Source of the DNA: Eledone cirrhosa
Lineage: Eukaryota
Direction of reading: 5' to 3'
DNA length: 64,000 nucleotides
Assembly: GCA_964016885.1 (NCBI GenBank)
Contig: OZ024743.1
Coordinates: 348,688,001 to 348,752,000, forward strand
In this document: positions 17,714-46,257 of the stretch, one piece after another
How positions within the stretch are numbered: position 1 is the first letter of the stretch
How the letters are laid out: every line of letters begins with the position of its first letter
The notes under the pieces: model-generated
Seen by the model: only the letters and a program-made list of their open reading frames with translations
Database searches by the model: none
What the model was told of the DNA's origin: nothing
Program-made: the position numbers and the translations under genes

Positions 17714-18050
17714 TTAAACGGAAATAATGAAACGAAATTTCATTTCCCACTCTTAGTACGGCTGTTACTTAAATATAAGTATGTACACGTACATACATAT
17801 ATGTATACAGACGTACAATAGTATGTATATATATACATACATGCACACATATATATATGTACGTATGGATTCACCGAACATTTATTGTAATGCTCGGTGT
17901 GTTTATAAACAAACATCCCGTATTAAGCCGTAGTGTCCAGCAACCATCTTTGCTCGTTTGTTCAACACTGACAAAGGAACGCTGTACTAGTTTCAAGCTT
18001 ATTAGCTATCGTCAGCAACGCATACCTTCCTGCCAGATTGTTGAACATAC
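17714..18050 (-). mobile_element. Solo PLE pLTR unit (family A) with hammerhead at 17980-18020
   Basis: Near-identical to 32231-32570; minus strand CGTTG-CTGACGA-TAGCT(AATA)AGCTT-GAAA-CTAG-TA-CAGCG. Confidence 0.85.
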
Positions 18051-18055
18051 TTATT

Positions 18056-19960
18056 GAAATATTATTTTTTTTTTTAATCCGACAGAATGAATAATATTAT
18101 AATGGTTGCATTAAATATAATCGGTTACTATTGTTATATTAATCTTATGAAATACTAAATATCTAAAAATGCCTTTTTCATTTTTTCTGAGTGAAGTTGT
18201 ATTAAAATGTATTCTTATATATATGTTTTTCATGAAGGTGTTGAAGGTGGAGATAGGATTCCACAGATTCGATTGAATTAACTTGTTTAAAAATAGAAAA
18301 TATGTTTACCATTCATACTAATATTGCAGATAGTATTGTTGATGTGTGTGTGCGTGTTTGAGTGTTTTGTGTGGGTATTAAGATGGGGTTAAATGTGTCA
18401 AAATATCTCTATATGGAATTTGGGAAAGTGAAAAACGTTTGCAGTGGAGATAGAATTTATCTTTTGTCTTGTGGTATGAGTGTGTACACCTTGTATCAAC
18501 AAACAAAACCTTTCTATTTTATACGAAGATTAAAAAGGAAATGAATTCTAGAAACGCACAAAATCATCAAGAGTAAAAGGTAGCCTAAAACCCTAAAGCA
18601 TATCCTTACTGGGGCAAAAACCTACACAAATTCTGCAACAGTTACAAAATGTGGAAGAATAAATTTTGGTTCCTGCTTCTATCTAAGTGAAGGGACAGAA
18701 TTAATATGTAAGGATCGACAAGCCATTAAAAAAAAAAGAAAATTTCGCTTACTACTTAGAAAATCTGTCTATATATTTCAATGCTGTGGATACCTGCAAA
18801 TTGTTATACAGACAGGAAGCTCATTACGGAAAAGAATGACCATACATAGCCAACAAATCCGCGAAGAAACCACGGGACAACTCCCCTCAATCAGTCACAT
18901 CGCCACATGTACAACATTTCCCCGCTCTACGAATGCTCAGACTCGTTCACTCAACAACAGATAATAAATAATTAAAGAAAAAAAACAATTCATTAACAAA
19001 TGAAATTAAATATAAAATTGTTCCCCATCAGACAATAAATAATTATCTATGGATGAGAATAACCCATATACGCACACCTATATGCAAACACTTGTAACCA
19101 TATACGCACGCACACGTACACACTAACCTCACAAGTTAAAAGGAAAAACCATAACTCCAAGGAAAACTTCTTCTAAAAAATTTTCCTTCCTTTCCCTCTT
19201 CTATTCTCTCTTTCTTTTCGTCCTTTGTTCCCCTTATCCGCTTCTCTCTTCCTCTCTCCTTTTTATATTATTTTTTATTTTCACTATATTTTCCATTTTT
19301 TATTAACATTGATACTATTTTTTCTTCTTCTTTCTCTTCTGCAAATCCCCCAGGAACTCAACCTCTGCAACACCCGACCAGAACCACATTCAATCATGTT
19401 TCTTCCTATATTTTTATATTTGTAGATTTATCCTTGCTTTCATCTGCAACGCCCATAAATAATTTTGTTATCGTGATACAATATATACGCACACACATAC
19501 ATACATGTACGCACACACACATGCACACACCCACGCACACAAACACACACACACCAAAAGATAAATTATATATCTACCCCTAAATTTGTTCACTTCCACA
19601 AACTACAAATACTGAAGTTTCGACAAAATTGAACCCCTCCATAATGCCACCACACAAAATACACACACACACAAACACACACACGCGCGCGCACACACAC
19701 ACACACAAACACACATGCACTTCAAAAATTCTATTTGGACTAATGGTATGAAGGTTCGAACATTTTCAACCACACTTACACTAGCAACCCTTTACAAGAG
19801 AACATATATATAAGAATAAATTTTGACAAAAAACTCACATATATATTTTTAAATATTTAATGTTTCATAAGATTTTAATACCAATTGAAACCGGTTATAT
19901 TAATGCAACAGTTACAAAATTATTCTTTCTGTGAGATTAAGAAAAATATAGTTCTGTACA
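18056..19960 (+). mobile_element. Old PLE remnant: GIY-YIG fragment between diverged inverted repeats
   Basis: About 18760-19000 encodes QTGSSLRKRMTIHSQQIREETTGQLP..HIATC (frameshifted GIY-YIG). 18056-18470 is a diverged reverse complement of about 19555-19955. Confidence 0.7.
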
Positions 19961-22909
19961 TTTTTACCTTCCCTTATATATATATATATATATATATAGA
20001 GAGAGAGAGAGAGAGAGAAAGATTTGAATGGATACAGTTTAGTTGAAAGGAATTTATTGACACGTGTTTCTATAACAGTTACATATATATATATATATAT
20101 ATATACATATATATAATTACAGAGAGGGGGGGTGATTTAGATATAGATATGTATTGGAATTTTGTATTTCTCAAGGAATATGGTATGTTTATAAACAAAG
20201 ATTGAGAAAGATTGATGCAAAAACACGCGGAGAAATTGCCACCTGTCCAGCACAAGCAAGGGGGAACAATCGTCGATGCATTTCAAACTGAGCTGCTTCT
20301 AATCAGGAGGAATCCTCCCGCTCTTGCAACTGCTGGACTTTGAAAACATATATATACATTCACTCTCTCTCTCTCTCTATATATATAAGAAGATGAGTAT
20401 TGACGTACATACTCATCTTTTTGCATTTCAACGAGGGTTCTTCACCCCACTATCAGGCTAAACTAAATAATTTATTTTCTTTATTTATTCAAAATACTAC
20501 GATAGCTTATATTTATAAGTTCAAACTCGCTCGCTGTTTCGCAAAGATTTTTACTTGAAATTACAGTTACTAAGATTATAGCTTCTAATTTGAATGGGAT
20601 AAGACGGGTGATGTGTCGGTGGAATGGTAGCACAGTTGTCTGGATAACCAAATATATATATATATATATATATATATATATATGTATGTATAGATGTATA
20701 TATGTTTCACTCTTTCTCTCCGTTTCTCCCCCTCTCTCTCTCTCTCTATATATATATATATATATATATATATATATATAGAGAGAGAGAGAGAGAGAGA
20801 GAGCGGGAGAGACAGAGAGAAAGAGTGAAACATTCATACATACATGCAAACATACATACATACATATATACATACATATCCATCGTGAGACAGACACATC
20901 CGCAAATCTATATATGTAGTCATGAGTGTTACAAGTGAAATCCTCTCGAGAGAATTCATATTGGTTACGATTTTCACTGGCACCGTCATTGTGGAACGTG
21001 CTCCAATATTAGCACATCGGAATTCTCGTCACAGATCATTCTGAAATCAAATCGTCAAGAAAATATATCAGCAAATAACAAGAAATGCTTTGAAAAAAGA
21101 AATAAAAATAAAAAATAATAATAATAATAGTAACAACAACAACAATGATAACAATAATAAACAATTTTGGTTATACCTTGATCATCAGCAATGGCGAGAG
21201 AAACAATGGCTAATAACAACAACAATAGCGTTGACGGCGACACAAAGATTAACAGCATATACTACCACTAAACAACGACTATAATAATGTTGACGATGCT
21301 GCTGCTGCTGCTGCTGCTTATGATGATGATGATGATGATAATGATAATAATAATATGTTGAATTATTGGCTGTGACGATTAGATGTGCAGTCAGTTTTAC
21401 CATTCAATTATATATATATATATATATATATATATATATATATATAATATATGTATGTATGTATATACATATATATATATATAGTATACAGTATATATAT
21501 ACATATATATATATATACATACATATATATATATATATATATATATATATGTATATTTGTATGAATGTATATACGTAAGTATGTATATATATATATATGT
21601 ATATATGTATGAATGTATATATGTAAGTATGTATATATATATATGTATGCATGTATATATGTATGTGTGTGCGTACGTATGCATGTATGTATGTATGTAT
21701 GTATGTATGTATATTTGTATGTATGTAAGCTGATGGAATAGCAGTCTCTATAGGTGGAGGAATGTCATGGATGTTTTGTGTTAAAATATCTGATTAGACG
21801 CCCAAGGGAACGAATCTAGTTCTTGATATCTGGAAACGCAATGAATTGTTGTACACCATCAGAATTGAAATTTCCTTATTTTGGCATCTCATGGCGGAAA
21901 TTAGGAAAATAGAGACAACTCTGTCCCTGTAATTAAGTGTAGAAAGTCCTTCTGCTCGATATCTTTTCCTTTCATTCTTTCATTTAATATTTATACCTTT
22001 CTTTCCTTCTTTCTTCTTTTTCTTTCTTTCTTTCTTTCTCTTTCTTTCTTCTTTCTGTCTTGGGTGATTTTATGTACTTTTTTTTTAACTTGTTATTATT
22101 AATTTTGTATTCTTTTTATCATTTTATTGAAAATGCCTTTCCTTATATTTTTACGCTTTCCTTACATCAATTTATACATACAATTTCTTACAACCTTTTA
22201 TTATTATGTTTATTCCTTCTTTATTTTCCAACTACATACAGTTAATAAAAGTATTGTCCATGTATCATCTGCTCTCTCTTTCTCTCTCTCTCCTTCTCTC
22301 TCTCTCTCTCTTTCACTCTCACACTCTCTCTCACTCTCTCTCTCTCTCTCTCTCTCTCTCTCTCTCTCTCTCTCTATATATATATATATATATATATATA
22401 TATATATATATATATACAAGCACACATACACACGCACACACACACATACACATACACACACACACATACACACACACACATACACCCACACACATATATA
22501 TATATATATATATACATACATATATTGAAAGATAGGGAAAAATAAATGTTTGAGAAATTCTTTTCTTAATTCTTTTGTTATCATACCGATTTCATTTACT
22601 GTATGAAAAAATGTCAGGTTTTGGTTCCATAATATTTTCTATCTGCCTGTAGACAGTTTGTTTCAAGAAAGACAGAGGTGATATTTTAATTGCATTTGTT
22701 GACTTTACTATGACTGATATTCATAATAGCAATAACGTGTGGACTTGATCTACCCTAGTACTTAAAATACACCTAATTTTCTGATATGCCCCACGAGGCA
22801 TGAAATGTGACACTGGGCTTAGAATATAGGCTATATGACATTGTATGGATTGAAGCTACATTGGGTTTGAAGAAGGTGTTCCAATTGTTCAATTAACGAA
22901 ATAGCGTGC

Positions 22910-23165
22910 TCATGAAACTACCGTGCAAGTGGCTTTCACATACACATGTACCCACAACGTAATTCTCTGGGAGATTCAGTATGAGACACCATATGACAAG
23001 GTTCTCTCTATGAATTGCAACATGATCATATAGATCGTGCTACTAAACAGTTTTGTCTACAGAAGAACTTGAGTTGACAGGTGACTATGGTAAAAAACAC
23101 TTGGTTATGTTGCCATCTAGTAGGATCTAAACCGGGACATTCTTTTTATTAGGAAGCGAACTTAA
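22910..23165 (-). mobile_element. Decayed SINE fragments
   Basis: Similar to 24095-24200 (GTGCAAGTGGCT..ACATGTACCC..AACGTAATTCTC.GGGAGATTCAG). Confidence 0.5.
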
Positions 23166-45500: not shown

Positions 45501-45750
45501 TACCCATCTGCCAGATAGTTGAACGTTCGAAAGTATATACTTTCCTTATGAAAATTAACGGCTGAGCAGCCTAATTTGCATATTGAGTGAGTTAAATCGG
45601 TGAAATTTCGTTTTCATTTTGTTTCAATTTATCGTTTTCGGTATGCCTGACCGATTTAACTCACTCAATATGCAAATTAGGCTGCTCAGCCGTTAATTTT
45701 CATAAGGAAAGTATATACTTTCGAACGTTCAACTATCTGGCAGATGGGTA

Positions 45751-45795
45751 AACGGTGCTGATGATAGCTAACAAGCTTGAAACTAGTACATCGTT
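45751..45795 (+). ncRNA. Type I hammerhead ribozyme (family A')
   Basis: AACGGTG-CTGATGA-T-AGCT(AACA)AGCT-T-GAAA-CTAG-TA-CATCGTT; predicted cleavage after GUA at 45788. Confidence 0.8.
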
Positions 45796-46212
45796 CCCGT
45801 GTCAGTGTTGAACAAAAAGGTGACGTGGTTGCCTTAACACCGTATGGCATAAATTCAGGCTGTTCAGTTTGTTTACAAACGAACAAAGCGACGTTAGCGC
45901 CGCTAAACTGATACGTGCATATATGTATGTGTACCTGTATGCATATGTATGTATATATGTATATATATATATGTGCATGCTACTGTACGTCTGTATACAT
46001 ATATGTATGTACGTATACATGCATACTTACATTTAAGTAAGTGCCATACTAAGAGTGAGAAATGAAATTTCGTTTTCATTTTGTTTCAATTTATCGTTTT
46101 CGGTATGCCTGACCGATTTAACTCACTCAATATGCAAATTAGGCTGCTCAGCCGTTAATTTTCATAAGGAAAGTATATACTTTCGAACGTTCAACTATCT
46201 GGCAGATGGGTA

Positions 46213-46257
46213 AACGGTGCTGATGATAGCTAACAAGCTTGAAACTAGTACATCGTT
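46213..46257 (+). ncRNA. Type I hammerhead ribozyme (family A')
   Basis: Identical to 45751-45795, 462 bp downstream. Confidence 0.8.

What the first reader, a model, noticed from the sequence alone, without database searches (positions are those of the whole stretch)
17980..46257. Covariation between hammerhead subfamilies A and A' supports a selected RNA fold
Seen: the copies at 17980/32497 and 45456/45751/46213 diverge widely in flanking sequence, yet within the motif they differ only at tolerant sites. Stem I is CGTTG/CAGCG versus CGGTG/CATCG (a U.G pair becomes G.U at the same position), variable core position 7 is C versus U, and loop II is AATA versus AACA. Inference: structure-preserving evolution.
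Basis: partly seen in the sequence, partly recalled or inferred. Interest (0 to 1): 0.7.

Follow-up and report, generated by a model that had tools for sequence, protein, structure and literature searches.

The report
Whole-unit RNA fold in a retrozyme
These five motifs belong to a family of about 28,000 copies of a non-coding repeat carrying a hammerhead (likely self-cutting) RNA motif; the single base-pair swap first noticed is weak evidence, but an unchanged catalytic core and paired changes across the whole 420-500-base unit suggest that the RNA fold was likely selected while the element was being copied.

Summary
The five motifs and the four listed differences are real. They sit in a 420-500-nt non-coding unit with 28,521 exact core matches in this 3.0-Gb genome, inserted as Penelope-style tandem and inverted arrays: a non-LTR retrozyme. 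This scan already reported the family elsewhere in this genome. The U·G/G·U swap is one lineage event, no stronger than covariation between unrelated columns; U·U copies exist (210 exact); N7 and loop II vary independently; the 41-nt motif overall is not significantly more conserved than the rest (7/41 vs 59/220 columns, p=0.13). The flanks do not diverge freely: they extend stem I. Better evidence supports the conclusion: 0 of 23 catalytic and helix II/III columns differ among ten subfamily groups (p=0.001), and Watson-Crick compensatory changes lie outside the ribozyme, although their excess loses significance under a strict indel filter. Genomic copies decay freely, so selection likely acts on the transposing RNA, not for the host. 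Cleavage and expression untested. New member of a known kind.

The parts
17980..18020 (-). Minimal type I hammerhead motif, subfamily A (U.G in stem I, C7, loop II AAUA, U.U at 10.1/11.1, palindromic helix III ACUAGU, GUA triplet)
17711..18049 (-). 5'-truncated single A unit (positions 112-453 of the reference unit)
32498..32538 (-). Hammerhead motif, subfamily A, identical to the 17980 motif
32226..32747 (-). A element: one full unit plus a partial upstream unit, 3' end at the tail site followed by (TA)n
45458..45498 (-). Hammerhead motif, subfamily A', in the inverted arm
45753..45793 (+). Hammerhead motif, subfamily A' (G.U in stem I, U7, loop II AACA)
46215..46255 (+). Hammerhead motif, subfamily A', second direct unit
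45216..45601 (-). Inverted, 5'-truncated arm of the A' insertion, ending at the body end site (unit position 435) in (TA)n 45192-45220
45601..46556 (+). Direct arm: 2.1 tandem units of 462 bp, ending at the tail site (unit position 494) in (TA)n 46554-46733
45727..45813 (+). Predicted extended stem I (45727-45757 paired with 45789-45813) enclosing the ribozyme; holds A-U/G.U/G-C and A-U/G.U pairs across subfamilies
45843..46048 (+). Predicted long-range helix P (45843-45849 with 46042-46048): C-G/U-A at 45845-46046 and U-A/A-U at 45849-46042 between subfamilies
46053..46128 (+). Predicted helix Q (46053-46058 with 46123-46128), spanning the tail end site between tandem units: A-U/G.U/G-C at 46058-46123
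45789..46250 (+). Predicted cleavage-to-cleavage monomer, 462 nt, 37% GC, circular fold z=-7.0

Best explanation
The motifs are hammerheads of a high-copy, non-coding tandem repeat (a non-LTR retrozyme) that was likely copied by Penelope-like retrotransposon enzymes, and whose transposing RNAs were likely selected to keep both the catalytic core and a fold of the whole 420-500-nt unit. Shown: copy number, subfamily ladder, Penelope-type insertion anatomy, invariance of the core among subfamilies, compensatory base changes, and free decay of inserted copies. Inferred: a tandem array is transcribed; two hammerheads, probably pairing through the palindromic helix III, cut the RNA into monomers; the long stem I brings the ends together for ligation into a circle; a Penelope-type RT/endonuclease primes at a (TA)n nick at one of two fixed sites 60 nt apart and copies the RNA into truncated, tandem or inverted insertions. 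Only RNAs that still cut and fold found new subfamilies, so changes fix at tolerant sites (N7, loop II, H17, the 10.1/11.1 mismatch) or in compensated pairs, often through G.U.
For: Core: 0 of 11 catalytic columns (p=0.036) and 0 of 23 catalytic plus helix II/III columns (p=0.0012; 2 of 25 and p=0.027 if 10.1/11.1 is counted as constrained) vary among ten groups from 125 of 131 arrays, against 59 of 220 outside. A sample chosen by a flank motif, not the core, gave 78 intact cores, 12 with scattered 1-2 changes and 10 truncated of 100, and no recurrent core-mutant subfamily; the new subfamilies it revealed change H17 from A to U, a cleavable triplet by the NUH rule (recalled): 87 of the first 100 of 1,441 non-A hits are U, 10 G, 3 C (hand count). 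Fold: seven real monomers fold as circles with z -4.8 to -9.5; sense folds lower than antisense in 10 of 10. A structure predicted from one copy and tested on the other subfamily, motif and TA block excluded: two-sided kept pairs 5 vs 1.09 expected (p=0.002) and 6 vs 1.58 (p=0.003); broken pairs 6 vs 11.8 (p=0.014) and 10 vs 20.0 (p=0.0002). Alignment-free tallies, as copies/arrays: helix Q A-U 91/47, G-C 66/40, G.U 13/3, A.C 1/1 of 172; extended stem I A-U 131/84, G-C 44/9, G.U 37/20, A.C 0 of 212; helix P C-G 108/69, U-A 58/14, others 11 of 177; hairpin 61-76 A-U 155/80, G-C 22/19, G.U 10/8, A.C 0 of 190. Insertion anatomy: 97 of 164 outer 3' ends fall on two equivalent sites 59-60 nt apart and 121 of 164 are followed by TA-rich DNA; 5' ends vary; inversions are common, as described for PLEs (PMC8557442, passages and section 11). 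Intact 713-aa Hydra-type PLE frames are abundant in the genome.
Against: With columns within 4 nt of an indel removed (which also removes helices P and Q), the two-sided excess is not significant (p=0.36, 0.48, 0.08); the deficit of broken pairs holds in two of three references (p=0.005, 0.009, 0.15). G.U versus A.C outcomes, 16 vs 8, p=0.076, with 19 one-sided transversion mismatches. The group comparisons share branches and are not independent; groups were drawn by eye from the tree; most loci were found with core patterns. G10.1-C11.1 of canonical hammerheads is absent. No 5' end of 204 lies within 3 nt of the predicted cleavage site, so the genome gives no direct mark of cutting. 14 of 29 A' units in one large array carry a change that breaks helix III, so array growth does not need an intact motif. 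The one intact PLE family examined does not carry this unit, so the partner is not identified. In the 2026 preprint eight of nine tested frog elements did not cleave.
Confidence: 0.72

Rival explanations
1. Only the catalytic core is under selection; the apparent covariation in stem I and in the rest of the unit is shared ancestry of a few master copies plus chance.
For: The stem I pair covaries no more than unrelated diagnostic columns; strict indel filtering removes the two-sided excess; extended stem I columns vary as often as outside columns, 10/46 vs 59/220, p=0.30; on the 91-column alignment, pairs with two-sided change are 3 vs 2.2 in shuffles, 137/500.
Against: Five alignment-free pair tallies show two Watson-Crick states with few mismatched copies; broken pairs are fewer than expected even under the strict filter in two of three references; sense-strand folding is favoured in 10 of 10.
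Confidence: 0.17
2. The paired changes come from DNA-level processes: inverted repeats made more perfect by template switching, then spread by satellite-type array turnover, without selection on RNA.
For: The unit is rich in inverted repeats and a long TA hairpin; arrays show higher-order periodicity and spread core-breaking changes.
Against: Intermediates at three pairs are G.U on the ribozyme strand, with A.C nearly absent; helix P has 7-bp arms about 190 nt apart; dispersed insertions have fixed 3' ends in (TA)n; this does not explain the invariance of unpaired catalytic positions.
Confidence: 0.07
3. The fold is kept by host selection on the genomic copies (a domesticated regulatory RNA).
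For: None direct; the family is very abundant.
Against: Inserted copies accumulate private changes at 0.3-3% per site depending on the group, including in the core (12 of 90 untruncated copies); a helix III-breaking G-to-T variant occurs 37 times.
Confidence: 0.04

Closest known systems
Metazoan non-LTR retrozymes (Cervera and de la Pena 2020, PMC7229834; passages and section 14 read)
   Same: Non-coding tandem units, one type I hammerhead per unit, low GC, predicted highly self-paired monomer; axolotl HHR_Amex2 also has a U.U mismatch at the base of helix II and cleaves better as a dimer.
   Different: Unit of 420-500 nt is above the 170-400 nt reported there; no RNA or cleavage data here; inverted arms and two fixed 3' ends are Penelope features.
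Minimal hammerheads of Penelope-like elements (Cervera and de la Pena 2014, PMC4209133; passages and Discussion read)
   Same: [quoted passage not shown]
   Different: No G10.1-C11.1 pair and no extra nucleotide after A9; long stem I; no linked reading frame found.
Vertebrate retrozymes as non-autonomous PLE derivatives (Li, Clavereau and Pollet 2026, bioRxiv 10.64898/2026.07.22.740005; parts 1-3 of 5 read, supplements closed)
   Same: Monomers, dimers and multimers; co-occurrence with PLEs; family lengths of 51-972 bp include this one.
   Different: There homology to pLTRs was shown; here no autonomous partner was found. The parts read do not test selection on the fold.
Hydra-clade PLEs (Craig et al. 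2021, PMC8557442; passages and section 11 read)
   Same: (TA)n insertion, 5' truncation, partial tandems, inverted 5' copy, tail at one end.
   Different: The element encodes nothing; its tail is 59-60 nt against 30-40 bp described there.

Membership tests
Type I hammerhead ribozyme | Core CUGANGA...GAAA...UH in order | tested here: met
   All five copies; invariant among ten groups
Type I hammerhead ribozyme | Helices I, II, III with helix I open | tested here: met
   97.5% of cells paired over 33 distinct rows; helix II 4 bp and helix III 2 bp never vary in that alignment, whose rows were chosen for an intact core
Type I hammerhead ribozyme | G10.1-C11.1 pair | tested here: not met
   U.U in A, A', B, D and C.A in subfamily C; a U.U precedent exists in axolotl HHR_Amex2, so this marks a variant
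Type I hammerhead ribozyme | Match to Rfam Hammerhead_1 | tested here: not met
   No hit for the 17980 copy at E<=0.5; none of the five among the 150 listed rows
Type I hammerhead ribozyme | Loop I-loop II tertiary contact | not tested
   Not modelled
Type I hammerhead ribozyme | Self-cleavage | not testable with these tools
   Needs an in vitro assay
Non-LTR retrozyme | Tandem units each with a type I hammerhead | tested here: met
   45601-46556; arrays of 9-30 units
Non-LTR retrozyme | Non-coding, low GC | tested here: met
   No frame of 120 aa or more over the units; GC 35-38%
Non-LTR retrozyme | Monomer size of known families | tested here: inconclusive
   407-516 nt: above 170-400 nt (PMC7229834), inside 51-972 bp (2026 preprint)
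Non-LTR retrozyme | Expressed as linear and circular RNA | not testable with these tools
Penelope-mobilised non-autonomous element | 5' truncation, partial tandems, inverted 5' copy, tail at one end, microsatellite target | tested here: met
Penelope-mobilised non-autonomous element | Homology to the pLTR of an autonomous PLE | tested here: inconclusive
   No match of 50 nt or more to the one intact Hydra-type family examined; other families in the genome were seen only as fragments

The most novel reading that the evidence does not exclude
The unit under selection is a whole circular RNA: helices that span both the cleavage site and the genomic 3' end are kept by compensatory change, the conserved mismatch at 10.1/11.1 and palindromic helices II and III make a hammerhead variant that cuts only as a dimer, and the 28,000 copies are a dated record of A-U to G.U to G-C paths in a viroid-like animal RNA, from which its structure can be read before any experiment.
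Probability: 0.3. Interest if true: 0.6.

Novelty: new member of a known kind. Interest (0 to 1): 0.33.

Why it matters
Whether minimal Penelope-type hammerheads cut at all, and whether anything beyond the ribozyme matters in animal retrozymes, is open: in vitro activity is low or absent in many. A subfamily ladder lets selection be read from one genome. It says the core is maintained in the lineages that spread, and it names specific helices (P, Q, extended stem I) with natural compensatory variants ready for mutate-and-rescue tests. It also shows why two subfamilies cannot establish covariation.

Tried and rejected
R-scape itself is not available; a G-test with background correction and permutation tests stood in. 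U.U as a pure bridge subfamily: 210 exact copies against 37 for a same-type G>T control and 5,281 U.G, but the 30 loci inspected lie on mixed backgrounds, many on the young A background or in arrays mixed with U.G, and the tree without those two columns intermixes them; so partly intermediate, partly decay or recombination. A C-G pair at 10.1/11.1 in subfamily C: only 3 of 100 listed, C.A is the common state, 48 of 100 by hand count. The Hydra-type RT remnant at 33200-34260 as the coding part of the 32497 copy: rejected, the unit starts 5'-truncated about 450 nt away and 5' flanks differ among loci. Adjacency of units to PLE fragments in a few loci was not tested against background; a shared (TA)n target could explain it. 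No RNA holder listed; contigs from four runs of unrecorded kind repeat the same subfamily variants and add nothing on expression. One search had helix III misplaced by one column and was repeated; one search stopped after two of four references. Branch-wise counts of substitutions were not made, so the number of independent events rests on group comparisons. Literature searches: hammerhead+Penelope+retrozyme, hammerhead+octopus+ribozyme, retrozyme+compensatory+secondary structure+subfamilies, retrozyme+cephalopod; by listing they show no study of this family or of selection on a whole retrozyme fold; subscription papers and preprint supplements were not seen.
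Full report
Observation. The five coordinates hold a minimal type I hammerhead motif: CUGA-N7-GA, a 4-bp helix II closed by U.U, GAAA, a palindromic helix III (ACUAGU) and a GUA triplet. The three A' copies are one young insertion (an inverted arm at 45216-45601 and 2.1 direct units at 45601-46556 between (TA)n tracts) and the two A motifs are identical, so the window offers two independent sequences. The flanks do not diverge at once: 22/27 upstream and 21/23 downstream positions agree and fold into a long extension of stem I (z -2.9 to -4.0 for the three copies folded).

The family. The window lies in a 3.0-Gb animal genome. The core pattern has 28,521 exact matches (control 4) and a flank 17-mer 32,427. 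Units are 407-516 nt between hammerheads, 35-38% GC and non-coding. Of 164 outer 3' ends, 97 fall on two equivalent sites 59-60 nt apart and 121 run into TA-rich DNA (this count includes some low-complexity hits); 5' ends vary, and partial tandems and inversions are common. These are the insertion features described for Penelope-like elements, with (TA)n targeting in the Hydra clade (PMC8557442). A Hydra-type element with an intact 713-aa frame is abundant here, but its terminal repeat is not this unit. Tandem non-coding units with type I hammerheads are non-LTR retrozymes (PMC7229834), proposed to be PLE derivatives (2026 preprint). Earlier notes of this scan describe 422- and 467-nt units in the same genome.

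In 110 copies taken by position along contig 1, the stem I pair is U.G 55, G.U 39, A-U 11, U.U 2, C-G 2, U-A 1 (two entries are truncation junctions); N7 and loop II assort independently of it (U.G with AACA 19; G.U with C7 9). Trees of one unit per array (81 arrays, 131) are ladder-like: A-U in older B groups, G.U along the A' lineage, U.G in the A lineage, with U.U copies near its base and also within it. U.U has 210 exact copies against 37 for a G>T control and 5,281 for U.G, on mixed backgrounds. The swap is therefore one lineage event at a tolerant pair, likely reached through a mismatch. Its G statistic sits among those of unrelated diagnostic columns. The whole 41-nt motif is not significantly more conserved than the rest among ten groups (7/41 vs 59/220, p=0.13; A vs A' alone p=0.03), and invariant runs of 15-17 columns occur outside it.

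What does show selection on the ribozyme. None of 11 catalytic columns and none of 23 catalytic plus helix II/III columns varies among the groups (p=0.036 and 0.0012; six of 131 arrays were left ungrouped), while 5 of 8 tolerant columns do. Because most loci were found with core patterns, I sampled by the flank motif: of 100 hits, 78 have an intact core, 12 have scattered changes and 10 are truncated. This sample revealed subfamilies C and D, which change H17 from A to U and, in C, the 10.1/11.1 mismatch from U.U to C.A. Amplified lineages thus change the triplet only to another form that the NUH rule (recalled) allows, and keep a non-Watson-Crick pair at the base of helix II. Inserted copies decay freely, core included, and 14 of 29 A' units of one array carry a helix III-breaking change: selection is inferred to act on source RNAs, not on copies.

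Selection beyond the ribozyme. Seven monomers fold as circles with z -4.8 to -9.5, part of which is a TA-rich hairpin; sense is lower than antisense in 10 of 10. RNAalifold on 16 monomers gives 124 pairs, 9 with two-sided change, covariation term -4.27 kcal/mol. Predicting from one copy and testing on the other subfamily, with the motif and the TA block excluded, two-sided kept pairs are 5 vs 1.09 and 6 vs 1.58 expected (p=0.002, 0.003) and broken pairs 6 vs 11.8 and 10 vs 20.0. Removing columns near indels, which also removes helices P and Q, leaves the two-sided excess non-significant (p=0.08-0.48) and the deficit of broken pairs significant in two of three references. Alignment-free tallies show two Watson-Crick states at five pairs, with G.U as the intermediate and A.C nearly absent at three; over all pairs G.U leads A.C 16 to 8 (p=0.076) and 19 mismatched states also occur. 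This is moderate, not conclusive, support; each pair is one or two events.

Mechanism. Shown: family size, anatomy, subfamily structure, core invariance, compensated pairs, decay of copies. Inferred: transcription of arrays; cleavage, probably by dimers (helix III duplex -4.8 kcal/mol; dimer behaviour in PMC4209133 and PMC7229834); ends held by extended stem I and ligated; copying by a Penelope-type enzyme primed in (TA)n. No 5' end of 204 maps to the cleavage site, which argues against run-off from a cut linear monomer and fits either a circle or an uncut multimer. Cleavage, expression and the partner element are untested.

Verdict. Real, partly re-interpreted, a new member of a known kind. 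Covariation among PLE hammerhead families is already stated in the 2014 paper. The part not found in the four searches made is evidence that the fold of the whole monomer is maintained. Interest 0.33.

Noticed in passing
window 15173-15481 (-) and 16973-17291 (+): A second hammerhead family, two inverted copies 94% identical, with a canonical G10.1-C11.1 motif at 15212-15256 and 17208-17252 (Rfam Hammerhead_1, 29.1 bits, below the gathering score of 34).
   Followed up: partly
window 36863-37627 (-): A third family: tandem units 372 bp apart, 92% identical, hammerhead-like cores at 37443 and 37071 with an A.A mismatch at 10.1/11.1. With U.U and C.A in the main family, a mismatch at this position recurs in this genome.
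   Followed up: partly
window 33200-34260 (-): Broken Hydra-type Penelope-like RT remnant with several stops and frame changes, 41-61% identical to RT fragments in other loci.
   Followed up: partly
window 3922-4842 (+): 306-aa frame with RT end and a GIY-YIG domain (Pfam E=0.0018, below cut-off): another Penelope-like family.
   Followed up: no
window 17315-17560: Short inverted piece matching the terminal repeat of the intact 713-aa Hydra-type element, ending in (TA)n; a generic scan found no clear hammerhead in that element's repeat, although the clade is described as always having one.
   Followed up: partly
L126-L127 (G000:C3:180042500-180056200): Array of 29 A' units with higher-order periodicity in unit length; 14 carry a C-to-G change at 15.2, present in both arms. 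L214 alternates two unit types.
   Followed up: partly
L172, L190, L194, L195, L121: Single insertions mixing units of different subfamily states, pointing to template switching between RNAs or insertion next to older copies.
   Followed up: no
window 32565-32585 (-) and L161: Young A units read GCATAAGGTAAGTATAT, a splice-donor-like stretch also seen nearly identically in the 3' region of the intact Hydra-type element; older groups have A at the key position. May be chance.
   Followed up: no
window 41059-41093 (+): Another hammerhead-like core with a long helix II region, similar to motifs seen in L138, L145 and L151.
   Followed up: no
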